A stretch of DNA of 12,818 nt from positions 1 to 12,818 of the forward strand of contig QNES01000128.1 in the NCBI GenBank assembly GCA_003645255.1. The letters run 5' to 3'. The notes beneath the pieces are model-generated. The model was not told the origin of the DNA and ran no database searches. It worked only from the letters and a program-made list of their open reading frames with translations. The position numbers and the translations under genes are program-made. This document shows positions 1-12,564 of the stretch, one piece after another (position 1 is the first letter of the stretch; each line of letters begins with the position of its first letter). The DNA is from Gammaproteobacteria bacterium (GTDB taxonomy: Bacteria > Pseudomonadota > Gammaproteobacteria > Beggiatoales > Beggiatoaceae).

Positions 1-406
1 CTTCTGGGATTTTGCCACCGCCGGCAAAAAACTCGCTAACTTGCACCTCAACTATGAACAGCAACCAGAATACCCCTTAAAATGGATGGCTCAACCTGAC
101 ATGCCCTTAAACTGGCGCGTCGACAAAATGAAACTCTCCCGCGACAAGCGACAAATCATTTACAACGACTCCCTCACCCTCGGCGGCATTCCACCTGAAG
201 CTTTTGAATACAAACTTGGTAATCGCTCCGCCCTTGATTGGGTTATTGATCAATATCGGATTAAAGTGGATAAACGGAGTGGCATTGTTAATGATCCGAA
301 TCGGTTGGATGATGAAGAATATATTGTGCGCTTAATTGCGAAAGTGGTTTTTGTGAGTTTGGAGACTGTGGGGATTGTGTTGAAATTATCGGATTTGACA
401 CTATAA
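1..406 (+). CDS. C-terminal end (partial; the ORF is open to the window start) of a Type ISP/IIG restriction-modification enzyme or N6-adenine DNA methyltransferase-endonuclease fusion
   Basis: The frame is open from position 2 with no upstream stop. The translated C-terminus is ...LSRDKRQIIYNDSLTLGGIPPEAFEYKLGNRSALDWVIDQYRIKVDKRSGIVNDPNR..DDEEYIVRLIAKVV.VSLETV. This matches the conserved extreme C-terminal motif of single-polypeptide Type IIG/ISP (LlaGI/MmeI-like) enzymes. The 5' portion of the gene lies outside the window. Confidence 0.7.
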   Translation, partial: FWDFATAGKKLANLHLNYEQQPEYPLKWMAQPDMPLNWRVDKMKLSRDKRQIIYNDSLTLGGIPPEAFEYKLGNRSALDWVIDQYRIKVDKRSGIVNDPNRLDDEEYIVRLIAKVVFVSLETVGIVLKLSDLTL

Positions 407-2550: not shown

Positions 2551-3297
2551 ATGTTTAATTCATATACCAGCGTAACCCATAAATCATGGGGTGATCGCAT
2601 TAAAGAAAGCTTTATACTTGCTGCATTGGGGCTCTGTTTATTTTTCGTCGCATTTCCAGTGCTGTTTTTGAACGAAGGTCGTTCTGTTTACCAGGTACAA
2701 AAATTGGAATATGGCAAAAGTATCGTGGTTCCAATTAATGCCGATAGTGTAGCAAAAGATAATGAGGGCAAACTGGTTCATACAAGTGGTGAGGCCACAA
2801 CGGATGAAACTTTGACAGATGAGGTGCTTGGGGTTAAAGCTGCCGAAACTATCAAGTTACAGCGCGTGGTAGAAATGTACCAGTGGCAGGAACATGAATC
2901 CTCAGTGACTGAAGAACACTATGGAGGTGATGAAACAACGACAACGACCTATTCCTATTCAGAAGAATGGTCAGATGATCCCATTGACTCCAGCAGTTTT
3001 GACGAGTCCAACGAACATCGCAATCCTGATATGCCAATTCACGGAAAAGAAATTAAGGCTCAACAGGTGACACTGGGTCAGTTTTCCCTATCGGAATACT
3101 TTATTGGGCATATGGACGATTATCAACCTCTGCAAATGCCAGATGAAGAACAGACGCAGGTGTTGGAAAAACTCAGTGCCTTAATGGAAGGTAAAAAAAA
3201 CAAACTTACGGTGACTATTATTACGTCAGTGAAAACCCTGCTGCTCCTCAAATCGGTGATCTACGGATACGATTTAAAGTTGTCCTGCCTGCTATAA
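2551..3297 (+). CDS. TMEM43/DUF1625-family membrane protein, N-terminal part, terminated early by a frameshift in an A8 tract
   Basis: SWGDRIKESFILAALGLCLFFVAFPVLFLNEGRSV has the N-terminal TM segment plus the NEGR motif, and VVEMYQWQEHE follows. Both are hallmarks of the TMEM43/DUF1625 family. The reading frame changes at AAAAAAAA 3193..3200, and the true protein continues in frame 0. Confidence 0.6.
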   Translation: MFNSYTSVTHKSWGDRIKESFILAALGLCLFFVAFPVLFLNEGRSVYQVQKLEYGKSIVVPINADSVAKDNEGKLVHTSGEATTDETLTDEVLGVKAAETIKLQRVVEMYQWQEHESSVTEEHYGGDETTTTTYSYSEEWSDDPIDSSSFDESNEHRNPDMPIHGKEIKAQQVTLGQFSLSEYFIGHMDDYQPLQMPDEEQTQVLEKLSALMEGKKNKLTVTIITSVKTLLLLKSVIYGYDLKLSCLL

Positions 3298-3329
3298 TAT
3301 CTGTTGTTGCCAAACAAGCCGGTACTAGC

Positions 3330-4208
3330 TTGGATACCTACACAACTGAACGGGATTTTAGCCTTAAATTTTATGGTTTTTCAATCGTTGACAATAACAT
3401 TCAACTTTTTGAATATGGCAATGTGACAGCCAATAGCATGTTTAAACACGCCAAACAGGCTAATGCACTCATGACCTGGATTTTTCGCCTTATTGGCCTT
3501 ATTATGATGTTTGTTGGCTTACGTATGATATTCGGTGTACTGGAAAAACTTGCAGCGGTCGTACCGTTTTTTGGCAAGATTATTGGATTCTTCAGTTCTT
3601 TGATAGCTTTTGTCATAGCTGCTGTACTTTCCTTAATCACCATTGCAATTGCTTGGTTATTTTTCCGCCCATTGTTAAGTGTCATACTTTTCATGATTGC
3701 AGGTGGACTTTTGTATTTATTAAAATATTTGCGTAAACAACCACAACAAGAGCCAATGATGGTTCCTGGAATGGGAGTACCTCAACCGATGCTAATCCCT
3801 CAGCAAGGTGTTCCACAAGCAATGGTTATGCCTCAAGGCACTCAACCAATGCCTCAAGGCGCTCAAGTTGTCATGGCTCAACCAATGCCTCAAGGCGCTC
3901 AAGTCGTCATGGCTCAACCAATGCCTCAAGGCGCTCAAGTTGTCATGGCTCAACCAATGCCTCAAGGCGCTCAAGTTGTCATGGCTCAACCAATGCCTCA
4001 AGGTGCTCAAGTCGTCATGGCTCAACCAATGCCTCAAGGCGCTCAACCCGTCATGGTTCAACCAATGGTAATGCCTCAAGCCGTTCAACAAACAGGCGTT
4101 CCCCAAAACGTCAATTCGGTCCAACAGTATGGGGTGACAACAGCCGTTACACATCCACAAACTCCACCAATGCTGGTTCCTGAGATGGTAATCCCCCCAA
4201 AGTCATAA
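3330..4208 (+). CDS. TMEM43/DUF1625-family membrane protein, C-terminal part (3 TM helices plus a Pro/Gln/Met-rich tandem-repeat tail)
   Basis: Frame 0 is open from 3195 as KKQTYGDYYYVSENPAAPQIGDLRIRFKVVLPAIISVVAKQ..., so the ORF caller's TTG start at 3330 is an artefact. The three hydrophobic helices (WIFRLIGLIMMFVGL, VVPFFGKIIGFFSSLIAFVIAAVLSLITIAIAWLF, LLSVILFMIAGGLLYLL) match the TMEM43 C-terminal region. The tail carries 6x PMPQGAQVVMAQ. Confidence 0.6.
   Translation: MDTYTTERDFSLKFYGFSIVDNNIQLFEYGNVTANSMFKHAKQANALMTWIFRLIGLIMMFVGLRMIFGVLEKLAAVVPFFGKIIGFFSSLIAFVIAAVLSLITIAIAWLFFRPLLSVILFMIAGGLLYLLKYLRKQPQQEPMMVPGMGVPQPMLIPQQGVPQAMVMPQGTQPMPQGAQVVMAQPMPQGAQVVMAQPMPQGAQVVMAQPMPQGAQVVMAQPMPQGAQVVMAQPMPQGAQPVMVQPMVMPQAVQQTGVPQNVNSVQQYGVTTAVTHPQTPPMLVPEMVIPPKS
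3843..4075 (+). repeat. Tandem 36-bp direct repeat (about 6.5 copies) encoding PMPQGAQVVMAQ
   Basis: The unit caaccaatgcctcaaggcgctcaagttgtcatggct repeats near-perfectly, with only synonymous gtt/gtc and ggc/ggt changes. It creates spurious ORFs on both strands (3808..4071+, 3792..4160-). Confidence 0.9.
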
Positions 4209-4247: not shown

Positions 4248-4275
4248 GGTGGGCAAAGTGTTTTTATTGCCCACC
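4248..4275 (+). terminator. GC-rich hairpin downstream of the TMEM43 gene (putative terminator)
   Basis: GGTGGGCAA-agtgttttta-TTGCCCACC has a 9-bp stem and sits 40 nt after the stop at 4206..4208. The T-run lies in the loop, not 3' of the stem, so the assignment is tentative. Confidence 0.35.
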
Positions 4276-4345
4276 GACAGTTAAAAAAGTCCAAAATTTA
4301 CCCGTTATTAGTATTGTTAATTGGGAGTGATAAAAAATACAGAAT

Positions 4346-5470
4346 ATGATGCAAAATGATGAATTAATGGAAATCGAAAAAGAAGAAGTTGGAGAGTTTG
4401 ATGTTGCTTCAGAAGATACCGATTCTCCCTTTAAACCTAAAGATATTGATATTGCTATCGAACAAAATAGTTTGTCAACGATTATTGGCATGATTGAAGA
4501 TGATGCCATTGATATGAATACCGAATTTCAAAGGAGTGGTAATTTATGGGCTGAATCAGTGATGAGTCGGCTTATCGAATCTATTTTATTGCGTTTACCT
4601 TTGCCAGTATTTTATTTTGACGCTTCTGATGATAATAGGTGGCTCATTGTAGATGGCTTACAACGGCTTTCGACATTTAAACGCTTTATGATTGATCACA
4701 ATTTAACGTTAGATGGTTTAGAGATACTGACTGATCTCAATGGTAAAACTTATGAACAATTAAGCCATCTTCTCAAACGAAAAATGGCACGTTATCAAGT
4801 AACCACTTATTTGATCAAACCGGGAACGCCAAAAAGAGTGAAATATGATATTTTTCGGCGAATCAATACGGGTGGGCTTATTTTAACCACACAAGAAATA
4901 CGTCATGTACTCAATCAAGGAAAATCAACCAGTTATCTAAACAAATTGGTTGAAGATAGTCGCTTTACCAAGATTATTCGTCTTAAAGACAATCGAATGC
5001 AAGCGCGTGAATTAATTGTGCGTTATTTGGCTTTTTCCATGACACCTTATCAAGAATATTATCAAGAATTTAAGGGAGCCAATTTTACTGTGTTTCTTGA
5101 TAAAGCAATGGAAAAATTAGCCCATTTGAGTCCTGCAAAACAAGAACAGTTTAAAAGTAATCTTTGGAAAGCATTGCGAGTTTGCCATGCATTATTTGGT
5201 GAACATATTTTTAGTAAATCCATTCTTGATGGTCATAAAAGGCAAAACGGTGCTTTATTTGAAGTATGGACTGTACTCATTGGACAATTGAGTCATAGCG
5301 AAAATAAACGTTTATTGTCATCAAAATCTCAGCTAATTAAGGAATTCAAATCATTGTTGAAAAATGATGATGATTTTTTTAAATCAGTCTCTCGCTCAAC
5401 TTTAAGCAAAAATCTGGTGATAAAAAGATTTGAAACCATTGAATCGCTGATTAAAAAATATACCTTATGA
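4346..5470 (+). CDS. DUF262-domain protein (ParB/sulfiredoxin-fold, GmrSD/DndB-like N-terminal domain) with no DUF1524/HNH C-terminal domain
   Basis: NTEFQRSGNLWAESVMSRLIESILLRLPLPVFYFDASDDNRWLIVDGLQRLSTFKRF matches the DUF262 core (FQR...W.....LIDSI..G.P....................DGQQRLTT). The DGQQR signature appears here as DGLQR at 4652..4666. The C-terminal half contains the RELIVRYLAF helical region. Its stop overlaps the next gene's start in ATGA. Confidence 0.8.
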   Translation: MMQNDELMEIEKEEVGEFDVASEDTDSPFKPKDIDIAIEQNSLSTIIGMIEDDAIDMNTEFQRSGNLWAESVMSRLIESILLRLPLPVFYFDASDDNRWLIVDGLQRLSTFKRFMIDHNLTLDGLEILTDLNGKTYEQLSHLLKRKMARYQVTTYLIKPGTPKRVKYDIFRRINTGGLILTTQEIRHVLNQGKSTSYLNKLVEDSRFTKIIRLKDNRMQARELIVRYLAFSMTPYQEYYQEFKGANFTVFLDKAMEKLAHLSPAKQEQFKSNLWKALRVCHALFGEHIFSKSILDGHKRQNGALFEVWTVLIGQLSHSENKRLLSSKSQLIKEFKSLLKNDDDFFKSVSRSTLSKNLVIKRFETIESLIKKYTL

Positions 5471-6585
5471 TCACGAATATTTACGTACAAAACTTCAAAG
5501 CTTTTCAGGAGGCTGAAATACCGCCCTGCCCACTCAATATTCTCACCGGTTTAAATGGCATGGGTAAATCGACGTTTCTGCAAAGCTTATTATTGCTCAG
5601 GCAATCTTATCGACAAAACACCTTATTAGATAAGGGCTTATTATTAAATGGTGAATATATTGAAATTGGTAAAGGCAAAGATGCTTATGCAATGTATGGC
5701 ACCACGGAAAAGCTCATTACCTTTGAAGTAGAATGGAACGAAGAAATAGAACTTCGTTGCGAATTTGAATCACGCGATGAATTAGATTTACTGCCCACCC
5801 ATCAACAACTCCAAATTTCCGATCAAAAAGTGTGGCAACAAGCCTTATTTCAGGATAAGTGGCAATATTTAAACACCGAAAGAGTGAGTCCTAAAACCTT
5901 TTTTCCGGCTTCAGCTTATCATATTGAACAAATCCATACTTTGGGCAATCACGGCGAATTTACCACGCATTTTATTGCGAAAAATCAACGCAAAGATATT
6001 CCCATAAAAGCCTTAGCGCATCCAAAAGCAAACTCTCTCGCTTTACTCGCCCAATTAGATGCGTGGTTGGGAGAAATTACGCCCAATATTCGCTTGACTT
6101 CTGTTTTATATAATGAATTTGAAATTGCCCGATTATCGTATAAGTTTGAAGTCGGTGAAGAATTTACCGAAGATATGAAACCCACCAACGTCGGGTTTGG
6201 CTTGACTTACGTCTTACCCGTCGTGACTGCCGTTTTATTTGCCAATCCTGGTGACTTACTCATTATTGAAAATCCAGAATCCCATTTACATCCGCAAGGG
6301 CAAGCTCGGTTAGGAAAATTGTTTGCGCAAGCGGCTGAACAGGGTGTACAACTGTTCATTGAAACCCATAGCGATCATGTTCTCAATGGCGTGCGTGTTG
6401 CCACAAAACAACAGTTAATTTCACCGGAAAATGTGGGTATTTTCTTTTTTGAACGCCATTTGGAAGCTAATGAACATCGAACTGAAATTATTCAGCCGAT
6501 TATAGATGAAAATGGTCGAATTAATCAATGGCCATCAGGCTTTTTTGATGAATGGGGTAATCAGTTAGATGAATTATTGAAATAA
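5467..6585 (+). CDS. RecF/ABC-like AAA ATPase (AAA_21-type) with a DUF3696 C-terminal region
   Basis: The N-terminus MITNIYVQNFKAFQEAEI..LNILTGLNGMGKSTFLQSLL is an SMC/RecF-like N-terminus with a Walker A motif (5548..5574). Walker B/D-loop reads DLLIIENPESHLHP (ENPE at 6268..6279). The C-terminus reads LFIETHSDHVLNGVRVA...NQWPSGFFDEW, consistent with the DUF3696 (THSDH..NG.R) signature. It overlaps the upstream gene by 4 nt (ATGA). Confidence 0.8.
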   Translation: MITNIYVQNFKAFQEAEIPPCPLNILTGLNGMGKSTFLQSLLLLRQSYRQNTLLDKGLLLNGEYIEIGKGKDAYAMYGTTEKLITFEVEWNEEIELRCEFESRDELDLLPTHQQLQISDQKVWQQALFQDKWQYLNTERVSPKTFFPASAYHIEQIHTLGNHGEFTTHFIAKNQRKDIPIKALAHPKANSLALLAQLDAWLGEITPNIRLTSVLYNEFEIARLSYKFEVGEEFTEDMKPTNVGFGLTYVLPVVTAVLFANPGDLLIIENPESHLHPQGQARLGKLFAQAAEQGVQLFIETHSDHVLNGVRVATKQQLISPENVGIFFFERHLEANEHRTEIIQPIIDENGRINQWPSGFFDEWGNQLDELLK

Positions 6586-6591
6586 CACGCT

Positions 6592-7557
6592 ATGGATATT
6601 TACATTTTTAATGAACTCTCAAGCCCTTTTGCAACGATAACTGAAGCTAAAGAACATTTAGTGACTTTTATAAATATTTGCTTTAGAGCACGGAAATTAG
6701 GTTTTAAAACACTTCATTTACATGAAAATATTGGAAAAAGTCTTTATGAATTGCCAATAGCTCCAAATTACACCGTGTCACAATGGTTGCAAGACTCAGA
6801 GGAAGATGTCAAAAATCAATTTCGAGAAATAATAACTAAAACACCTCTGATAACGAAAGATTATCCCATTGAAAAAGAACGTAATGAACTGTCAGAATTT
6901 AAAATAGAAATCAATCATAAAACGCAATTTGCTGATGGATTAGGGGCAGCTTACTTATTAGAAACACTTTGTGTCAGCTTTTTGTCCCATGATTTATGGA
7001 ATACTGATGAGATAAAAAACGTTAAACATTGGTGTCTGACAGAAGCCGGTAATGAGCTCACAGAAATAATTGCGGTTAAACATGCGTCAAAACCAGCACA
7101 TTTAGCGAAACATCAAGCTTGGTTTGAACAGAAAAAGCGGGAAAATCTCCAAAAAAGTCGAGATTTATGGGAACTTCGATACGAATTTTTTCCTCATTTA
7201 GTTTTATGTGGTGAAGTAGAAAAACAATTGACTCGCTTAGGTATTCAATCAAAATTTTTTGATCAAATCATTGAAAAGCTGAAACGGCTCAATGAATATG
7301 CCAAAAATTGGCAAAATGGTTCATACAGTGACACAAAAGCTAAACAATATGGGCTTGATGTCAGTGGCGAATCAGAAGGTACACTTAAAAAATATGGTAG
7401 ACAACGTAAATTCAGATTACCTAATAAAAAAAAGCAATTATTTGAAAAACATATCAAAACGGGCAATTTACGTTTTCATTTTTATCCTGATGAAGAAAGT
7501 CATACGATTTATGTAGGATATATTGGTTCTCATCTAAGTACAGTTAAATTTAAATAG
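6592..7557 (+). CDS. Hypothetical 321-aa protein, third gene of the DUF262-ATPase operon, with a C-terminus resembling the RelE/ParE fold
   Basis: It starts 6 nt after the ATPase stop with no separate RBS, implying translational coupling. No recognisable N-terminal domain. The C-terminal GNLRFHFYPDEESHTIYVGYIGSHLS resembles the RelE/ParE C-terminal consensus (GDYRIIY.IDDE...V.VLRIGHR). Confidence 0.7.
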   Translation: MDIYIFNELSSPFATITEAKEHLVTFINICFRARKLGFKTLHLHENIGKSLYELPIAPNYTVSQWLQDSEEDVKNQFREIITKTPLITKDYPIEKERNELSEFKIEINHKTQFADGLGAAYLLETLCVSFLSHDLWNTDEIKNVKHWCLTEAGNELTEIIAVKHASKPAHLAKHQAWFEQKKRENLQKSRDLWELRYEFFPHLVLCGEVEKQLTRLGIQSKFFDQIIEKLKRLNEYAKNWQNGSYSDTKAKQYGLDVSGESEGTLKKYGRQRKFRLPNKKKQLFEKHIKTGNLRFHFYPDEESHTIYVGYIGSHLSTVKFK

Positions 7558-7564
7558 CTAGGTG

Positions 7565-7582
7565 TCCAAAATATATTTTGGA
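7565..7582 (+). terminator. 18-bp perfect palindrome immediately after the operon stop (putative terminator)
   Basis: TCCAAAATA|TATTTTGGA begins 8 nt after the stop at 7555..7557 and is followed by TTTCAATAAATTC. The stem is AT-rich, so it is weak. Confidence 0.35.
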
Positions 7583-7651: not shown

Positions 7652-7746
7652 GGGAATGCGTATCATGATGCACCAGTGTGAAGGTAAAAGCAGGAAACTC
7701 ATCATAAAAATACGTTCAATGTTAGAACGCCTCAATACGCATTCCT
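7652..7746. other. About 95-nt structured element (three-way-junction-like) in the convergent intergenic region; candidate small RNA or element remnant
   Basis: Outer stem GGGAATGCGTAT (7652..7663) pairs with ATACGCATTCCT (7735..7746). Inner stem ATGATG (7665..7670) pairs with CATCAT (7700..7705). A third hairpin CGTTC-aatgtta-GAACG lies at 7713..7729. Confidence 0.3.
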
Positions 7747-7853: not shown

Positions 7854-8363
7854 TTAATCTAACTTTGCCAAAATTTCATCCACTGTATCAGGTGTTAGAT
7901 TTTCATGATATTTTCGCCCAATTTGCATCATTGGAGCCCCCCCACATGCGCCTAAACATTCTACTTCTTTCAAGGTGAATTTTTTATCAGACGTGGTTTC
8001 TCCCAATTTAATGTCCAATTTCTTTTCTAGGTGCTCAACAATTTCTTCAGAACCGCGTAGCATACAAGAAACATTGGTACACATACATAATTTATGTTGC
8101 CCTACCGGTTTAAGTTCATACATAGAATAAAATGTAGCCACTTCATAAACAGCAATAGGTGACATATCTAAATAATCGGCAACGGCATCCATTAACTCTG
8201 TTGTCAACCAACCACCGTTAGCTTCTTGGACAACCGTTAAAGCACCCATCACTGCTGACTGTTTTTGATCCGATGGATATTTAACGAGCCAACGGTCAAT
8301 TTCCGAACGAGTTTCATCCGATAAGATGGCAGAAGCATTGGGTTTAGACATACGTATTGACAT
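7854..8363 (-). CDS. NuoE/HoxE-family thioredoxin-like [2Fe-2S] ferredoxin subunit (24-kDa NADH-dehydrogenase/hydrogenase diaphorase subunit), encoded as a stand-alone gene
   Basis: GQHKLCMCTNVSCMLRGSEEIVEHLEKKL....EVECLGACGGAPMMQIG shows the four-Cys C-x4-C ... C-x3-C pattern and overall NuoE/NqoE/HoxE similarity. No nuoF/nuoD neighbours are present. Confidence 0.75.
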   Translation of the reverse strand: MSIRMSKPNASAILSDETRSEIDRWLVKYPSDQKQSAVMGALTVVQEANGGWLTTELMDAVADYLDMSPIAVYEVATFYSMYELKPVGQHKLCMCTNVSCMLRGSEEIVEHLEKKLDIKLGETTSDKKFTLKEVECLGACGGAPMMQIGRKYHENLTPDTVDEILAKLD

Positions 8364-8566
8364 AATTATTTAATGGTTAATGGTTAATGAACACTATACC
8401 AATATAATGTAAACCATTGATTTATTTAAGCCATTTTTGATAACGCTCATAAAATCAATTATTTAAATTAAATCGGTATAATGTCTAATGATTGATAATT
8501 AGTAGCTACTCAGTTTTGAAATAAAGCTTGAATTGATTTATTTCAAAATTAAAAAATTAATAAAAA

Positions 8567-8713
8567 GAAATACTATTTTGTAACAAATCAGGGCAACCAC
8601 AAGGGATTGCCCCTACGTTTGAATATTTTCTGAACTCGCCAACAAAAAAAATGTTGTAGGGGCAATCCTTTATGATTGCCCTGAGTAGCGATTTTTGAAA
8701 AAAATAGTATTTC
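8567..8713. mobile_element. Small palindromic MITE-like element: 13-bp terminal inverted repeats around two hairpin-forming inverted arms
   Basis: TIR-L GAAATACTATTTT (8567..8579) and TIR-R AAAATAGTATTTC (8701..8713). Internal arm A CAGGGCAAccacAAGGGATTGCCCCTAC (8589..8616) is the reverse complement, apart from a 4-nt centre, of arm B GTAGGGGCAATCCTTTATGATTGCCCTG (8656..8683). Each arm is itself a GGGCAA/TTGCCC hairpin. The same TIR pair occurs back-to-back at 2415..2444. Confidence 0.4.
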
Positions 8714-8889
8714 TAGTACGCTCAGACTAAGTAGTTACAATAATTAATGGTTAATAATTAATGCTCAACGGGGATAGTCCACCATTAATCATTAACTATT
8801 AATCAACCTAAGAATATGCATAAAATAAAATCGACAAGTAAGAACGAAGAATTTTAAAAATTATTTTATGCACGTTCCCTAACACTTGT

Positions 8890-9174
8890 CTAATATCTTC
8901 CCCCACCTCCTCTGGGTTTGCGAGGACGTTCGTCCCTCGGACGAGCCTGATTCACCTTGAGATTTCGATCCTTCATAAGACTTGAATTGAGGACTTTGAT
9001 TGCTTCTTCCGCATCTGCTTGCCTTGTCATTTCAACAAAAGCAAACCCTTTTGATTGCCCTGAATATTTATCGGTTATTATGTTGACAGTAGTGACTTCG
9101 CCATATTCACCAAAAAGTTCTTGCAGTTCATCTTCAGTCACACTATAGGGCAAGTTACCCACATATATATTCAT
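8890..9174 (-). CDS. rbp: Glycine-rich RNA-binding protein with a single RRM domain (Rbp-type)
   Basis: RNP-2 is NIYVGNL and RNP-1 is KGFAFVEM. The tail is RPRDERPRKPRGGGGRY. The canonical bacterial or cyanobacterial Rbp is 90-100 aa. Confidence 0.9.
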   Translation of the reverse strand: MNIYVGNLPYSVTEDELQELFGEYGEVTTVNIITDKYSGQSKGFAFVEMTRQADAEEAIKVLNSSLMKDRNLKVNQARPRDERPRKPRGGGGRY

Positions 9175-9205
9175 CTATATTTTCTCTGTGCTTTGAATCA
9201 AAAAA

Positions 9206-9260
9206 CACTATTGAATAATCAAGCGCACAAATTAAACAATAGTGATTAGCCCATTAATGG
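9206..9260 (-). promoter_or_regulatory. 5' leader and promoter region of rbp, with an inverted repeat and a 10-bp palindrome
   Basis: CACTATTG (9206..9213) pairs with CAATAGTG (9237..9244) across a 23-nt spacer. The palindrome CCATTAATGG lies at 9251..9260, between the yqiK stop and the rbp start. Confidence 0.3.
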
Positions 9261-9280
9261 CTAATTCTGTGTTGTTTCAC

Positions 9281-10684
9281 TCACACCTTCTTTAAGGGAT
9301 CAGGTGAAACATGGTTTTGCAATCCTACCTCATGGGAACTTTCTTTCAGAAATTTTCCAAGTGTATCAGGTAACTCAACACCAGCCATTTTAGCAAATTC
9401 ATGCAAAGGAGGCAATACCTTAGTGATATTAGAAAGCCAATTAGCGGTTGTAGAACGACCGCTATCATTCCCCCCATCCATCACCAAAATCTTATCGAAC
9501 TGAATACCACTGATTGCCTGAGATTGAGCTTCAACAATTTTTGGCATTTGTTCAACGATCATTAACATCGCAGCTTTATCAGGCTCATTCCCCGCTGCGT
9601 TCACGATAGCCTCGAATCCCTTAGCTTTCTTTGCCAATTGCTCATAAATACCTTCTGCGTGACCCAACATTTCAGCCTTAATCGCTTCACCTTTACCTTG
9701 ACCATCTAATGCAAGCTGTGCTTTATTAGCTTCCGCTTCGATGATATATTTTGATTTAGCGATTTCCGCCGGCACGACAACATCTGCTTGCTGAGTCGCA
9801 CGCTCACGTTCTGCACGCGCTATTTCTGCCAGTCGTTCAGCCTTATAACCTTCTTCTTGAGCCGCAGCTACACTTACCGCTTCGGCGGCATCACCCCGAC
9901 GCTTAGCTTCAGCTTCAGCTTCACGACGCTTCGCATTGGAATTAGCCTCAACGACAGTGGCTTCATTTTCACCCGTCACCGCACGGGCATTAGCATTAGC
10001 TACATTGACTCGTTCTTCCTGTTTTGCATTAGATGCCCCGGTTTCACCATCACGGTGTTGCAAAGCGACTTGGACCTTTGCCCGATTGACTGCTTCAGCG
10101 GCAGCTTTTTCACCCAGGGCTTTCAAATAACCTGACTCATCTGTAATGTCAGCAATATTAACATTAATAAGACGCAATCCTATTTTTTTCAACTCCTCCT
10201 CAATATTTTCCATCACATTATGACTAAAGGTATCCCGATCAGCATTGATTTCTTCAATATCCATCGTTGCTATCGTGGCACGCAATTGTCCGAAAATAAT
10301 TTCTTGAGCCATTCCCTCAATGGCTGAAGGAGTCAAACCAAGCAAACGTATTGCTGCATTAGTCATGAGATCTTCAGTCGTACCAATGCCAAATGTAAAC
10401 TTCGAGGGTACATTGACTCGAATGTTTTGCTTTGAAAGCGCAGAGCGTAGAGGTACATCTGTCGTTATAGGTGTCAAATCCAAATAGGAATACTGCTGGA
10501 TAAGGGGCCAAACAAAAGTAGCACCCCCATGAATCGGCAACGCCGATCTACCAACACCCACTTTACCATACTTAACCAATATCCGATTAGAAGGACAAGT
10601 TTTATAGCGACGAATGGCTAACATAAAGGTTCCAAAAACCATCAAGCCAATGACAGTCACTATCATAATAATATAAATTGACAT
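9281..10684 (-). CDS. yqiK: Flotillin-like SPFH/band-7 protein (YqiK/FloT family)
   Basis: It has an N-terminal TM helix, an SPFH domain and a long Ala/Glu-rich coiled-coil (AEAEAKRRGDAAEAVSVAAAQEEGYKAERLAEIARAERERA) followed by a flotillin C-terminus. It lies immediately downstream of an NfeD-like gene. Confidence 0.85.
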   Translation of the reverse strand: MSIYIIMIVTVIGLMVFGTFMLAIRRYKTCPSNRILVKYGKVGVGRSALPIHGGATFVWPLIQQYSYLDLTPITTDVPLRSALSKQNIRVNVPSKFTFGIGTTEDLMTNAAIRLLGLTPSAIEGMAQEIIFGQLRATIATMDIEEINADRDTFSHNVMENIEEELKKIGLRLINVNIADITDESGYLKALGEKAAAEAVNRAKVQVALQHRDGETGASNAKQEERVNVANANARAVTGENEATVVEANSNAKRREAEAEAKRRGDAAEAVSVAAAQEEGYKAERLAEIARAERERATQQADVVVPAEIAKSKYIIEAEANKAQLALDGQGKGEAIKAEMLGHAEGIYEQLAKKAKGFEAIVNAAGNEPDKAAMLMIVEQMPKIVEAQSQAISGIQFDKILVMDGGNDSGRSTTANWLSNITKVLPPLHEFAKMAGVELPDTLGKFLKESSHEVGLQNHVSPDPLKKV

Positions 10685-10707
10685 ATTTTAATCCTATAGT
10701 TGAAATT

Positions 10708-11253
10708 TTAAATTTCCAATGGGTTCACAATCAATTGATTATTGGAAACGCGCACCACTTTCACTGTATGCCCTCTGGTAATTTTTTCACCTTCTGTAAT
10801 AGCTTCAAGCTCTTCAAGTCTGCCCTGAAAAGAAATATTCACTTTACCACAGCCACCGAATTTGCCTGGTATGGAAATGGAAACGATTGCTTCCTTTCCA
10901 ACCGTATTTTCTAAGTCAATATTGCCTGATTCATTTAAGGTAGCAAGCCCTTTAAGCAATAACAAATTTAAAGCTACCATAAACAACCCAATTAAAATTG
11001 CCCAAACAATAGAAATGCCCGCCTCAACGCAAGCCAGCCCTCCCCAGGAAAACCCCAGGAAAAAAACAATCGCATTTCTGAGGGTAAAAAACATGGAAGC
11101 ATCCCCACTTCCATCGTGATCCCCTCCATCTCCATCATCTGCTCCAATAAATAAGGCTACCACCATTTGAAGCATGAATAATAATGTAAAGGGAATAGCT
11201 AACCCCCAAAGAAGCTGCTGAACCCCGGTTAAACTAATCCACCATTCTTGCAT
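10708..11253 (-). CDS. yqiJ: NfeD-like membrane protein (YqiJ family), partner of flotillin
   Basis: Hydrophobic helices, an acidic Gly/Asp loop (GADDGDGGDHDGSGD) and a C-terminal OB-fold-like soluble domain, in the conserved yqiJ-yqiK order. The start is placed at the ATG (MQEWW...) with AGGG 9 nt upstream. The ORF track's GTG at 11280 would overlap the upstream gene. Confidence 0.7.
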   Translation of the reverse strand: MQEWWISLTGVQQLLWGLAIPFTLLFMLQMVVALFIGADDGDGGDHDGSGDASMFFTLRNAIVFFLGFSWGGLACVEAGISIVWAILIGLFMVALNLLLLKGLATLNESGNIDLENTVGKEAIVSISIPGKFGGCGKVNISFQGRLEELEAITEGEKITRGHTVKVVRVSNNQLIVNPLEI

Positions 11254-11263
11254 ATATTTTACC

Positions 11264-11746
11264 CTATAACGATACACCACTATTTTTTAAATCAACCTGA
11301 TTCAACAAAGCCTGATTTGATAAAAAATCTTCCAACTTCTTTGAAAAAACTTTTTCCAATACAGGTGGAATAACCTTTTCTAACTGTTTCTCAATCATAA
11401 GACTAAGTCGTTTTTCCAATTCATCTGATGAAATTTCCACATCCGGCTTAACTTCTATTGTAAAAGTTTCTTTTGCTTCCAAACTTTTTAAAGCTTCTGA
11501 TGCCACATTAGCTGCCTCCAATAATTGATTTTCATCTAAATCGCCTTCGTCACGCAATGTTGGATCTGCACAAAAATCTTCAACTGCCCAAAAAAGGGTA
11601 TTGAGTATTTTATATTCTGTTTCTGAAAAATCAGTGTTGTCATATTCAAATAATTTTAAATACTCAGCTTCAAATTGGAGCGCAGATAACTGTCCTTGCA
11701 TGAAGGAATTGATAAGTGTTCCATACGGATAAATTGTTGATTTCAT
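11264..11746 (-). CDS. Hypothetical protein, possibly a colicin/pyocin-type immunity-like protein
   Basis: MKSTIYPYGTLINSFMQGQLSALQFEAEYLKLFEYDNTDFSETEYKILNTLFWAVEDFCADPTLRDEGDLDENQLLEAANVASEALKSL resembles the colicin-immunity-like family pattern recalled from memory (EE.Y.IL..LF.AVD.F.PDP.LR.EGDIDEE.L). The start ATG overlaps the stop of the upstream gene (ATGA) at 11743..11746. Confidence 0.45.
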   Translation of the reverse strand: MKSTIYPYGTLINSFMQGQLSALQFEAEYLKLFEYDNTDFSETEYKILNTLFWAVEDFCADPTLRDEGDLDENQLLEAANVASEALKSLEAKETFTIEVKPDVEISSDELEKRLSLMIEKQLEKVIPPVLEKVFSKKLEDFLSNQALLNQVDLKNSGVSL

Positions 11747-12105
11747 GTTATATTCCCATCTGATAATAGATGCTTTTCCTGTTTCATGCTCAAATGCCAT
11801 GCCGATAAAAATTGATGGTTTTTGCATAAAACATTGAGTTTGGTTCCTGGATTAAAAAAATGTTTAATCGGTTGTCCTTTATAAGTGCCTTTTATCACTA
11901 CCGTGTTCACATCAATAATATGCTTTAACAATGCTTGTTTAAAAGCAATTAGATTTGACAAATTATAATGACCCTCTACACCAAAAACAAGAGCATGTTT
12001 AAATTTTTTCTGCAATTGTTTATCACTAAAATGGCACCGCCAAATCAGGGGCAATAACCCATTTTTTCTTATCCACTGTAAAGCATTTTGATAAATATTA
12101 TACAT
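11743..12105 (-). CDS. Hypothetical 120-aa protein translationally coupled to the immunity-like gene
   Basis: No recognisable domain. The ORF is clean, and its TGA stop sits inside the downstream gene's ATG. Confidence 0.4.
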   Translation of the reverse strand: MYNIYQNALQWIRKNGLLPLIWRCHFSDKQLQKKFKHALVFGVEGHYNLSNLIAFKQALLKHIIDVNTVVIKGTYKGQPIKHFFNPGTKLNVLCKNHQFLSAWHLSMKQEKHLLSDGNIT

Positions 12106-12140
12106 TTTTAAGTAGGTACAAGTCTTTTAACATTTTTTTT

Positions 12141-12163
12141 CGGAAATAAACCCAGTTTTTTCA
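12141..12163 (-). terminator. Putative terminator downstream of the DUF2442 cassette
   Basis: On the minus strand CCAAGTTTTTT-g-AAAAAACTGGG forms a 10-bp hairpin with one mismatch, followed by TTTATTTCCG. Confidence 0.35.
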
Positions 12164-12188
12164 AAAAACTTGGTTTCTAAACAGAGCA

Positions 12189-12311
12189 TTATAAAACCGC
12201 CTCAACCCGTGCTAACATTTTATCTGTTACTTTAGTACTGCGTTCAATTTTAGCAATATAACCTTTTGAAACACCTAAACGCTATAACGATAAAACTTTT
12301 GTCCTTTTCAA
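12189..12311 (-). pseudogene. Remnant of an XRE-family HTH gene (no start, in-frame TAG)
   Basis: The minus-strand translation IKPLKRTKVLSL*RLGVSKGYIAKIERSTKVTDKMLARVEAVL matches the XRE HTH pattern (IK.LR...GLSQ..LA..LGVS..YIS.IERG.......L..IA.AL). It is interrupted by TAG at 12282..12284. Confidence 0.3.
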
Positions 12312-12321
12312 TGGTTTTATA

Positions 12322-12564
12322 TTATTTTTTTGGACACTTGCTTTCCAAATACAAACTATCAGGGCAAAAATCTTGTCCATTTTGCCATTGAACACTGCCT
12401 AAAAAGGGTTTAACTGAGTTAAATAAACTTATTTCTTTTAATTCTCTAAATATACCTTTATCTAAATAAGGCTTAACATCAAATACTTTAACTTCTCCAT
12501 TGTTAAAAGTAAGGGTTATAGTGTAGTTTAAATTGGGTTTAACATGTTCAACTCTTGGATTCAT
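12322..12564 (-). CDS. DUF2442-family protein (small partner of DUF4160 in two-gene cassettes)
   Basis: VKPNLNYTITLTFNNGEVKVFDVKPYLDKGIFRELKEISLFNSVKPFLGSVQWQNGQDFCPDSLY fits DUF2442 (..L.v.F.dG..r.fD..P.L..G.F..L.d...F..V.v..g.v.W.ngiD..Pd.LY). Its start is 10 nt after the DUF4160-fragment stop. Confidence 0.7.
   Translation of the reverse strand: MNPRVEHVKPNLNYTITLTFNNGEVKVFDVKPYLDKGIFRELKEISLFNSVKPFLGSVQWQNGQDFCPDSLYLESKCPKK

What the first reader, a model, noticed from the sequence alone, without database searches (positions are those of the whole stretch)
4346..7557. Tightly coupled three-gene operon (DUF262 protein, RecF/ABC-like ATPase with DUF3696, unknown 321-aa protein): candidate uncharacterised defense system
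The sequence shows a 4-nt ATGA overlap between genes 1 and 2 and a 6-nt gap with no RBS between genes 2 and 3. The operon has its own upstream AT-rich region and a downstream palindrome.

Gene 1 has the DUF262 ParB/Srx-fold core (FQR...W...SRLIESIL...DGLQRLSTF). This is the N-terminal domain of GmrSD/BrxU/SspE/DndB-type proteins, which sense or cleave DNA in several phage-defense and modification-dependent restriction systems. Here it lacks the usual DUF1524 HNH partner domain.

Gene 2 is an SMC/RecF/OLD-like ABC ATPase with the THSDHVLNGVR (DUF3696) C-terminus. The same ATPase class supplies the motor or sensor in Gabija, PARIS, Septu and AbiL-type systems.

Gene 3 has no recognisable domain except a possible RelE/ParE-like C-terminus.

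The context supports an island: an RM gene, a TA pair, decayed plasmid genes and MITE-like repeats. I cannot match the trio to a named system from memory. By inference it is a plausible new nuclease-sensor, ATPase and effector defense module.
Basis: partly seen in the sequence, partly recalled or inferred. Interest (0 to 1): 0.85.

Follow-up and report, generated by a model that had tools for sequence, protein, structure and literature searches.

The report
Known Menshen (NsnABC) anti-phage operon
The three tightly packed genes are an intact copy of Menshen, an anti-phage defence system that was named and tested in 2022 and catalogued in about 2000 genomes in 2025, so the locus is real but not new.

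Summary
Three same-strand ORFs sit at 4346-5470, 5467-6585 and 6592-7557, with an ATGA overlap and a 6-nt spacer. The domain calls are also right: DUF262, then an ABC ATPase with DUF3696, then a protein with no Pfam hit.

The trio is not an unnamed system. PADLOC models NsnA, NsnB and NsnC match the three proteins end to end (E = 8e-118, 1e-116, 2e-88). These are the three components of Menshen. Published sources report that Millman et al. 2022 validated it against T2, T4, T6 and Fado, and Li et al. 2025 (NAR, PMC12065111) dissected it.

All defining features I could test are met:
- NsnA has the DUF262 motifs, no DUF1524 domain and no extra N-terminal domain, which makes it Type I.
- NsnB has the family's atypical ABC motifs (Walker B ending in EN, GFG signature, Arg in the Q-loop).
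- In 58 of 66 genomes from many phyla, the A-B-C order is conserved directly upstream of an NsnC relative.

The mechanism is inferred, not shown: NsnA senses DNA, NsnB transduces the signal, and NsnC acts as an RNase effector. The upstream AT-rich region and the downstream palindrome are local features and are not conserved with the operon. Low interest; already known.

The parts
4346..5470 (+). nsnA: Menshen sensor candidate with a ParB-fold DUF262 domain and a C-terminal helical domain ('ParBDB' in Li et al. 2025). It has no DUF1524 and no extra N-terminal domain, so it is Type I.
   Evidence: PADLOC NsnA PDLC03877, E = 8.2e-118, residues 6-373 against model 20-383/385. Pfam GmrSD_N, 1.8e-16. 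Invariant F61 Q62 R63 W68, D103 G104 Q106 R107, and R172 I173 N174 T175 G176 across 40 orthologues. The first ~27 residues are not conserved.
4652..4666 (+). NsnA DGLQR motif (D103-R107), the predicted nucleotide-binding centre of DUF262.
   Evidence: D103, G104, Q106 and R107 are invariant and L105 is nearly invariant in alignment A2. The motif aligns to BrxU 7p9k 'DGQQR'. The role assignment comes from PMC12065111.
5467..6585 (+). nsnB: Menshen ABC ATPase of the OLD/SMC class with a DUF3696 C-terminal tail, the proposed signal transducer.
   Evidence: PADLOC NsnB PDLC03878, E = 1e-116, residues 1-371 against model 1-343/345. Pfam AAA_15 4.3e-24, AAA_21 1.2e-22, DUF3696 4.8e-18. The profile hits OLD ATPase 6p74, PtuA 8ee4, GajA and Rad50.
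5548..5574 (+). NsnB Walker A (G28-T36, GLNGMGKST; catalytic K34).
   Evidence: G28, N30, G33 and K34 are invariant in 42 orthologues.
6256..6279 (+). NsnB atypical Walker B (L264-E271, LLIIENPE). It ends in EN where ABC ATPases normally have DE, as described for the family.
   Evidence: E268, N269, P270 and E271 are invariant. Li et al. report the EN replacement as a feature of the family's reference NsnB.
6418..6576 (+). NsnB DUF3696 tail (residues 318-370), predicted in the literature to clamp the NsnC N-terminal domain.
   Evidence: Pfam PF12476, 4.8e-18, residues 318-370. G350, P356, F359 and D361 are invariant. The interaction is an AlphaFold 3 prediction in PMC12065111 and was not tested here.
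6592..7557 (+). nsnC: Menshen effector. It has an N-terminal PIN-like domain without the catalytic acidic tetrad (~res 1-166), a helical linker (~168-240) and a C-terminal RelE/YafQ-like BECR domain (~257-316).
7360..7539 (+). NsnC BECR (RelE-fold) putative RNase domain with candidate catalytic residues H287, R294, H296 and H314.
   Evidence: H287 and R294 are invariant and H296 and H314 are at least 90% conserved in 42 homologues. The secondary structure is one helix plus four strands. The H-R-H triad is described for PB-BECR1 in PMC12065111.
4248..4275 (.). Flanking hairpin (GGTGGGCAA/TTGCCCACC) between the upstream TMEM43-like gene and nsnA. It is a local feature and is not conserved with the operon.
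   Evidence: -16.1 kcal/mol, z = -2.9. It is absent from the flanks of ~90%-identical operons in L007-L009.
7565..7582 (.). 18-nt perfect palindrome (TCCAAAATA/TATTTTGGA), 8 nt after the nsnC stop. It may be a weak local terminator and is not conserved with the operon.
   Evidence: -7.8 kcal/mol, z = -2.0, no T-tract. Homology to L007-L009 ends at 7558-7561.

Best explanation
Window 4346-7557 encodes an intact Type I Menshen anti-phage system, nsnA-nsnB-nsnC, on the chromosome of an uncultured Beggiatoaceae-like gammaproteobacterium related to Thiomargarita and Parabeggiatoa.

Shown here: family membership, domain architecture, motif integrity, conserved synteny, and mobility as a compact three-gene unit.

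Inferred, following Li et al. 2025 and what is known of related systems:
1. NsnA (ParB-fold DUF262 NTPase plus a helical DNA-binding domain) recognises a feature of invading phage DNA. This could be modified DNA, as for the DUF262 domains of GmrSD, BrxU and SspE.
2. The signal passes to NsnB, an OLD/SMC-class ABC ATPase predicted to form a GajA-like tetramer. NsnB is predicted to hold NsnC by clamping its inactive-PIN N-terminal domain between two DUF3696 tails.
3. ATP binding or hydrolysis by NsnB then releases or allosterically activates NsnC.
4. The RelE/YoeB/YafQ-like domain of NsnC (candidate H287/R294/H314 site) cleaves RNA. By analogy with RelE-family toxins, the target may be mRNA on the ribosome. 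Translation stops and the infection aborts.

The 4-nt overlap and 6-nt spacer imply translational coupling, which would help fix the subunit stoichiometry.
For: - Full-length, very strong matches of all three proteins to PADLOC NsnA, NsnB and NsnC: 8.2e-118, 1e-116 and 1.9e-88.
- Pfam: DUF262 for gene 1; AAA_15/AAA_21 plus DUF3696 for gene 2; nothing for gene 3.
- The atypical motifs reported for the family's reference NsnB are present and invariant across orthologues: Walker B ending in EN, a GFG signature and Arg139 in the Q-loop, along with the three DUF262 motifs in NsnA.
- In the N-terminal domain, E8 is the only acidic residue conserved at 90% or more, so the PIN D-E-D-D site is missing.
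- Synteny: in 58 of 66 eligible loci from Pseudomonadota, Bacteroidota, Cyanobacteriota, Desulfobacterota, Chloroflexota, Acidobacteriota, Spirochaetota and Bacillota, NsnA and NsnB relatives lie directly upstream of the NsnC relative on the same strand. Four of the eight exceptions are NsnC N-domain swaps that still have A and B upstream.
- Reported experimental basis for the family: Li et al. 2025 state that S. silvestris Menshen protects against T2, T4, T6 and Fado (PMC12065111). A 2023 review states that mutating or deleting the DUF262 gene abolishes defence (PMC10952713). Both cite Millman et al. 2022, which I did not read directly.
- Context: a Type ISP/IIG restriction-modification enzyme and toxin-antitoxin pairs lie nearby.
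Against: - No experiment exists for this copy or for any close relative. The validated system is from a Bacillota species, and I could not align it directly to the window proteins. The link is through HMMs built for the family.
- No mechanistic step (the trigger, NsnA-to-NsnB signalling, the NsnC substrate) has been shown for any Menshen system. No Menshen structure was found in the PDB copy.
- I could not assign the published inPIN family number or confirm PB-BECR1 rather than another BECR family, because the paper's supplements are not held.
- No convincing promoter was found. The only hit upstream of nsnA scores 9 of 12 and its -10 hexamer overlaps the start codon. Promoter-like hits in the region (21) are not significantly above the shuffled expectation of 14.7 +/- 3.8.
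Confidence: 0.93

Rival explanations
1. A new, unnamed defence system that only shares domains (DUF262, ABC ATPase) with known systems.
For: Gene 3 has no Pfam or NCBIfam match. The proteins are annotated 'hypothetical protein' in NCBI and JGI.
Against: All three proteins match the Menshen-specific PADLOC models end to end at E between 1e-88 and 1e-118. The architecture, atypical motifs, NsnC fold and synteny all match the published description. The NsnC family has 2741 representative clusters.
Confidence: 0.02
2. A selfish addiction (toxin-antitoxin-like) cassette. NsnC would be a RelE-type toxin restrained by NsnB, and the operon would mainly stabilise itself or its island rather than defend against phage.
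For: NsnC has a RelE/YoeB/YafQ-fold C-terminal domain. NsnB hits AAA_21, the 'AbiEii toxin, Type IV TA' Pfam family. The operon moves as a compact unit between unrelated chromosomal sites. Toxin-antitoxin pairs lie nearby.
Against: Published sources report phage protection for the family, dependent on the DUF262 gene. A DNA-sensing NsnA component is conserved in 62 of 66 loci, which an addiction module would not need. The two roles are not mutually exclusive.
Confidence: 0.04
3. A housekeeping ParB/SMC-like DNA partition or repair module, with a ParB-fold protein working with an SMC/RecF-like ATPase.
For: NsnA has a ParB fold. NsnB weakly matches SMC_N, RecF, RecN and Rad50 at the Walker A region. 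The operon lies next to nuo genes.
Against: The matches to RecF, SMC and Rad50 cover only the N-terminal ~45 residues and fall far below the curated cut-offs. NsnB has no coiled coil. The third gene is a toxin-fold nuclease. The genomic context is not conserved: near-identical operons sit in at least three different neighbourhoods. Distribution across phyla is patchy, which is typical of horizontal transfer.
Confidence: 0.01

Closest known systems
Menshen (NsnABC), Type I, as in Solibacillus silvestris StLB046 (Millman et al. 2022; Li et al. 2025, PMC12065111)
   Same: Same three-gene order and tight coupling. NsnA is DUF262 plus a helical C-terminal domain, without DUF1524 or an extra N-terminal domain. 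NsnB is an ABC ATPase with Walker B ending in EN, a GxG signature, Arg in place of the Q-loop Gln, and a DUF3696 tail. NsnC is an inactive-PIN-like N-domain plus a BECR (YafQ/RelE-like) C-domain with a conserved His/Arg/His set. All three match the PADLOC Nsn models over their full length.
   Different: The host is an uncultured Beggiatoaceae-like gammaproteobacterium rather than a Bacillota species. The sequences have diverged, and the inPIN subfamily could not be assigned. The S. silvestris NsnC is inPIN11, whereas the commonest class is inPIN1. This copy is untested.
GmrSD / BrxU / SspE (DUF262-DUF1524 type IV restriction and PT-sensing nucleases)
   Same: NsnA shares the DUF262 NTPase domain and its three motifs. 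The NsnA profile aligns all three to BrxU 7p9k. Li et al. report a homologous helical middle or C-terminal domain.
   Different: There is no DUF1524 HNH nuclease. The effector is a separate RNase-fold protein coupled through an ABC ATPase. The similarity to BrxU is weak (E = 0.022).
Gabija (GajA), Septu (PtuA-PtuB), PARIS (AriA-AriB) and OLD-family ABC ATPase defence systems
   Same: NsnB belongs to the same ABC ATPase class (PADLOC AriA 3e-27, GajA 2e-16; PDB profile hits to OLD 6p74, PtuA 8ee4 and GajA). The logic of an ATPase oligomer restraining or activating a bound nuclease effector is shared, as a prediction in PMC12065111.
   Different: NsnB has no Toprim domain. The effector is PIN-like plus BECR, not Toprim or HNH. 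Menshen also has an extra DUF262 sensor protein that these systems lack.
PD-T4-2 (Vassallo et al. 2022), a DUF262-containing system
   Same: Gene 1 matches PD-T4-2_A over its full length (6.5e-35).
   Different: That match is far weaker than the NsnA match (8e-118). None of the matches listed for genes 2 and 3 is a PD-T4-2 partner model (gene 2: best 25 of 129 families shown). The gene content is different.
RelE/YoeB/YafQ type II toxins
   Different: The domain is fused to a PIN-like domain and a helical linker. There is no cognate antitoxin gene. Control is presumably exerted by NsnB.

Membership tests
Menshen (NsnABC) | Three co-directional, adjacent genes in the order NsnA-like, NsnB-like, then a third (NsnC) gene | tested here: met
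   ORFs at 4346-5470, 5467-6585 and 6592-7557, with a -4 overlap and a +6 gap. The same order is found in 58 of 66 eligible loci.
Menshen (NsnABC) | Each protein matches the family-specific HMMs used by PADLOC to call Menshen | tested here: met
   NsnA 8.2e-118, NsnB 1e-116 and NsnC 1.9e-88, all near full length on both protein and model. PADLOC's system-level rule was not run.
Menshen (NsnABC) | NsnA has a ParB-DUF262 domain with the QRxxxW, DGxQR and FxxxN motifs | tested here: met
   Pfam GmrSD_N, 1.8e-16. Q62-R63...W68 (four residues between R and W), D103-G-L-Q-R107 and F170...N174. All are conserved (F170 in at least 90% of sequences, the rest invariant) in 40 orthologues.
Menshen (NsnABC) | NsnA has a C-terminal helical 'ParBDB' domain and no DUF1524 nuclease | tested here: met
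   The NsnA HMM match extends to residue 373 of 374. There is no DUF1524 or HNH hit in Pfam at E of 0.1 or below. The fold of the C-terminal domain was not modelled here.
Menshen (NsnABC) | NsnB is an OLD-class ABC ATPase (AAA_15) plus DUF3696, with Walker B EN, a GxG signature and Arg in the Q-loop | tested here: met
   Pfam AAA_15, AAA_21 and DUF3696. I266-I267-E268-N269, G243-F-G245, R139, and K34 in Walker A are invariant in 42 orthologues.
Menshen (NsnABC) | NsnC has an N-terminal PIN-like fold lacking the D-E-D-D catalytic residues (inPIN) | tested here: met
Menshen (NsnABC) | NsnC has a C-terminal effector (nuclease/toxin) domain; in the commonest class this is a BECR RNase with an H-R-H triad | tested here: met
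Menshen (NsnABC) | NsnB tetramer binds the NsnC N-domain through its DUF3696 tails | not testable with these tools
   This is only an AlphaFold 3 prediction in PMC12065111. No multimer prediction tool is available here.
Menshen (NsnABC) | Confers resistance to phage infection | not testable with these tools
   Li et al. 2025 report this for S. silvestris Menshen, citing Millman et al. 2022. It has not been shown for this copy.
Menshen Type II | An extra sensor domain at the NsnA N-terminus | tested here: not met
   Only ~56 residues precede DUF262. The first ~27 are acidic and not conserved. This makes the operon Type I. Contrast L075, where NsnA is 463 aa.
GmrSD/BrxU type IV restriction | DUF262 fused to a DUF1524 HNH nuclease in one polypeptide | tested here: not met
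   No DUF1524 was found in any of the three proteins.
Gabija / OLD nucleases | ABC ATPase fused to a Toprim nuclease domain, plus GajB for Gabija | tested here: not met
   NsnB is 372 aa and ends in DUF3696, with no Toprim hit. The GajA models match only the ATPase parts.
PD-T4-2 | PD-T4-2_A together with its cognate partner gene | tested here: not met
   Gene 1 hits PD-T4-2_A at 6.5e-35, much weaker than NsnA. All 12 families matching gene 3 are NsnC models. No PD-T4-2 partner model appears among the 25 best of the 129 families matching gene 2.

The most novel reading that the evidence does not exclude
In this Beggiatoaceae clade the operon appears to move as a promoter-less unit bounded by its ORFs. 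Copies that are ~90% identical sit in at least three unrelated chromosomal contexts, and homology starts about 10-14 nt before the nsnA ATG and ends 1-4 nt after the nsnC stop. A sibling locus, L010, keeps only nsnB-nsnC plus 28 nt of the nsnA 3' end. One reading is that an unrecognised precise cassette-exchange or gene-conversion mechanism swaps defence operons in these repeat-rich genomes. More likely this is ordinary illegitimate or homologous recombination, with rapid turnover of non-coding flanks.
Probability: 0.07. Interest if true: 0.45.

Novelty: already known. Interest (0 to 1): 0.12.

Why it matters
This changes annotation, not biology. Three 'hypothetical proteins' in a MAG from a relative of the giant sulfur bacteria can be labelled nsnA, nsnB and nsnC (Type I Menshen).

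Menshen itself is still mechanistically unsolved. Its trigger, the NsnA-to-NsnB signal and the NsnC substrate are unknown, and I found no solved structure. Any intact copy is therefore a possible experimental subject. This copy offers nothing beyond the roughly 2000 loci already catalogued.

The analysis independently reproduces the published NsnC fold assignment and the domain shuffling, which adds some confidence to that bioinformatic model.

Tried and rejected
- **NCBIfam:** nothing reached a curated cut-off for any of the three proteins. NsnB gave only weak hits to MAD3, RecF and PtuA.
- **PDB sequence searches:** NsnA alone found nothing. The NsnC profile gave only chance-level hits such as Rab5. 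So there is no solved Menshen structure to lean on.
- **Rfam over the whole window:** no RNA family.
- **Promoter and terminator scan:** hits were not significantly above the shuffled expectation, so I assign no promoter. The palindrome after nsnC lacks a T-tract and is only a weak terminator candidate.
- **Paper supplements:** not held, so I could not look up whether this lineage, or which inPIN and BECR subfamily, is in the catalogue of Li et al.
- **Codon-position identity:** the calculation was invalid because an indel put the sequences out of register. I do not use it.
- **Direct comparison with S. silvestris NsnABC:** I considered spending a homology search to fetch these proteins but judged it unlikely to surface them among the top hits. 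The link to the validated system therefore rests on the PADLOC family models and the published description.
- **NsnA structure model:** not built. Only window or database-returned sequences may be submitted, and the answer would not change the verdict.


Full report
**Observation**

Genes 1 and 2 overlap by ATGA. Genes 2 and 3 are 6 nt apart with no Shine-Dalgarno-like sequence.

Pfam gives GmrSD_N/DUF262 for gene 1 (1.8e-16). For gene 2 it gives AAA_15 and AAA_21 plus DUF3696 (4.8e-18, residues 318-370). Gene 3 has no match.

One detail needs correcting. The THSDHVLNGVR string is the ABC H-loop, not DUF3696.

The upstream hairpin (4248-4275) and the 18-nt palindrome after the stop (7565-7582) are real but thermodynamically modest. 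No promoter or terminator call stands out from shuffled controls. Rfam finds nothing in the window.

**Identity**

Against PADLOC-DB the three proteins match NsnA (8.2e-118), NsnB (1e-116) and NsnC (1.9e-88, with a second NsnC model at 7.8e-76). Each match is near full length on both the protein and the model. NsnA, NsnB and NsnC are the components of Menshen.

The literature held here describes the system as follows:
- Menshen was discovered by Millman et al. 2022. Li et al. report that the Solibacillus silvestris system protects against T2, T4, T6 and Fado (PMC12065111).
- Mutating or deleting the DUF262 gene abolishes defence (PMC10952713).
- Li et al. 2025 catalogued 1997 loci in at least 27 phyla, a third of them in Gammaproteobacteria.
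- They defined the architecture as NsnA = ParB-DUF262 plus ParBDB, NsnB = ABC ATPase plus DUF3696, and NsnC = inactive PIN (inPIN) plus a variable effector, most often the BECR RNase domain PB-BECR1.

**Independent tests of the defining features**

*Motifs.* I extracted orthologues from 80 genome loci found with an NsnC profile and aligned them.
- NsnA keeps F61-Q-R...W68, D103-G-L-Q-R107 and F170...N174. Its first ~27 residues are not conserved and no extra N-terminal domain is present, so it is Type I.
- NsnB keeps Walker A (K34) and the atypical features reported for the family's reference NsnB: Walker B ending in E268-N269, a G243-F-G245 signature, R139 in place of the Q-loop Gln, and the H-loop H301-S-D-H304.

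In the N-domain, E8 is the only acidic residue conserved at 90% or more, so the PIN catalytic tetrad is absent. In the C-domain, H287 and R294 are invariant and H296 and H314 nearly so, consistent with the H-R-H site described for PB-BECR1.

*Synteny.* Using tblastn with the window's NsnA and NsnB, 58 of 66 loci with enough upstream DNA have A, then B, then C adjacent on one strand. The loci come from Thiotrichales, Bacteroidota, Cyanobacteriota, Desulfobacterota, Chloroflexota, Acidobacteriota, Spirochaetota and Bacillota.

Four of the eight exceptions (L067, L075, L080, L084) still have A and B directly upstream. Their NsnC shares only the C-terminal module with the window protein, at about 50% identity from roughly residue 190 onward. 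L075 is a Type II system next to a Type I hsdR gene. This is the domain shuffling described in the paper.

The A-B -4 overlap is the modal junction across the family (43 of 62).

*Family size.* The NsnC profile finds 2741 cluster representatives at 50% identity (835 at E of 1e-30 or below), nearly all 305-330 aa. This is a large, common family.

**Context**

The exact NsnC protein occurs on at least 19 contigs, including the MAG GCA_029935875.1. Its close relatives are Candidatus Thiomargarita and Parabeggiatoa.

Upstream lie the 3' end of a Type ISP/IIG restriction-modification gene (PADLOC 1.8e-29), an Excalibur-domain gene, a BrnT/BrnA toxin-antitoxin pair and a TMEM43-like gene. Downstream on the other strand are nuoE, an RRM RNA-binding protein, flotillin, NfeD, a colicin-D-like toxin with its immunity gene, and DUF2442. 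The 'island' idea is loosely right (restriction-modification plus toxin-antitoxin pairs plus Menshen), but the region is interleaved with housekeeping genes.

Copies that are ~90% identical at the nucleotide level (L007, L008, L009) lie in other contexts. Homology to the window is confined to 4332-7561.

**Mechanism**

Shown here: family membership, intact catalytic motifs, and the folds.

Inferred, from PMC12065111 and from established knowledge of DUF262 proteins, OLD-class ABC ATPases and RelE-family toxins:
1. NsnA senses phage DNA.
2. NsnB, predicted to be a GajA-like tetramer, holds NsnC through its DUF3696 tails and couples ATP binding or hydrolysis to effector activation or release.
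3. The BECR domain of NsnC cuts RNA, possibly ribosome-bound mRNA as RelE, YoeB and YafQ do. This halts translation.

None of these steps has been shown experimentally for any Menshen system. The profile searches found only BrxU (weakly) for NsnA, and OLD, PtuA, GajA and Rad50 for NsnB, with no solved Menshen structure.

**Rivals**

- *A new, unnamed system:* excluded by the HMM, motif, fold and synteny evidence.
- *A ParB/SMC-like housekeeping module:* contradicted by the non-conserved context, the patchy phyletic spread and the toxin-fold third gene.
- *A selfish addiction cassette:* compatible with the RelE-fold effector and the operon's mobility. It does not explain the conserved DNA-sensor gene or the reported phage phenotypes, though it could coexist with defence.

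**Verdict**

This is a standard Type I Menshen operon. Already known; low interest.

Noticed in passing
window 7854-12564 and beyond (L001/L002/L005, e.g. L005:3933-13280): The nuo operon is interrupted. Between nuoE (7854-8363, minus strand) and nuoD/nuoC (outside the window) lie an RRM protein, flotillin, NfeD, a colicin-D-like toxin with its immunity gene, DUF2442, an IS605-type TnpB and DUF4160. The TnpB sits between DUF2442 and DUF4160, which together form a described toxin-antitoxin pair, so the insertion sequence appears to have split that pair.
   Followed up: partly
window 199-388 and 2175-2364: A 190-nt direct repeat (87% identity) duplicates the 3' end of the Type ISP restriction-modification gene. 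The two copies bracket the Excalibur gene and the BrnT/BrnA pair (1976 nt apart). This suggests an insertion or a rearranged second restriction-modification gene remnant.
   Followed up: partly
window 2551-4208 (tandem repeat 3841-4067): The TMEM43-like membrane protein gene is split into two ORFs here (248 + 292 aa), and also in L003 and L004. It is intact (516-552 aa) in L001, L002 and L006. It contains a 36-nt tandem repeat (6.3 copies, PMPQGAQVVMAQ units) whose copy number differs between assemblies. The gene appears polymorphic or decaying within the population.
   Followed up: partly
window 11264-12105 (minus strand): A colicin-D-like toxin (120 aa, PF11429) overlaps a colicin immunity protein gene (PF09204). 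This looks like a chromosomal tRNase-type toxin-immunity pair, and neither protein matched any PADLOC model.
   Followed up: no
L010:4548-6969: In another gammaproteobacterial MAG from this group (72-80% protein identity), nsnB and nsnC sit between dnaK-dnaJ and dapB with no nsnA. Nucleotide homology to the window starts 28 nt inside the nsnA 3' end, so nsnA was probably deleted. L054 (Prochloron) also shows no NsnA hit. L016 holds only an NsnC fragment, and L066 has only partial matches to all three genes.
   Followed up: partly
window 4332-7561 vs L007:3016-6228, L008:3765-6973, L009:3765-6969: Homology between ~90%-identical Menshen operons in at least three different chromosomal contexts is bounded almost exactly by the coding region (about -10 to -14 nt and +1 to +4 nt). 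No conserved promoter or terminator travels with it. L007 and L008 share their upstream flank (94%), while the window and L009 do not.
   Followed up: yes
window 8577-8688 and 2059-2156; L010 several sites; L012:869-948: Short (35-110 nt) dispersed repeats are shared with other Beggiatoaceae MAGs and occur in multiple copies and both orientations. They resemble MITEs. A 43-nt imperfect palindrome lies at 2395-2481, and a long palindrome lies just upstream of nsnA in L008.
   Followed up: no
window 7653-7663 / 7735-7745: An 11-nt perfect inverted repeat (GGAATGCGTAT/ATACGCATTCC), with arms 71 nt apart, lies in the 296-nt nsnC-nuoE intergenic region. The region folds at -27.6 kcal/mol (z = -1.9) and matches no Rfam family.
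   Followed up: partly
L075:3072-9481: A Flavobacterium Type II Menshen. NsnA is 463 aa with an extra N-terminal domain. NsnC is 262 aa and shares only its C-terminal module with the window NsnC (about 50% identity from roughly residue 190 onward). A Type I hsdR gene follows immediately downstream. It is a clear example of the published domain shuffling and association with restriction-modification systems.
   Followed up: partly
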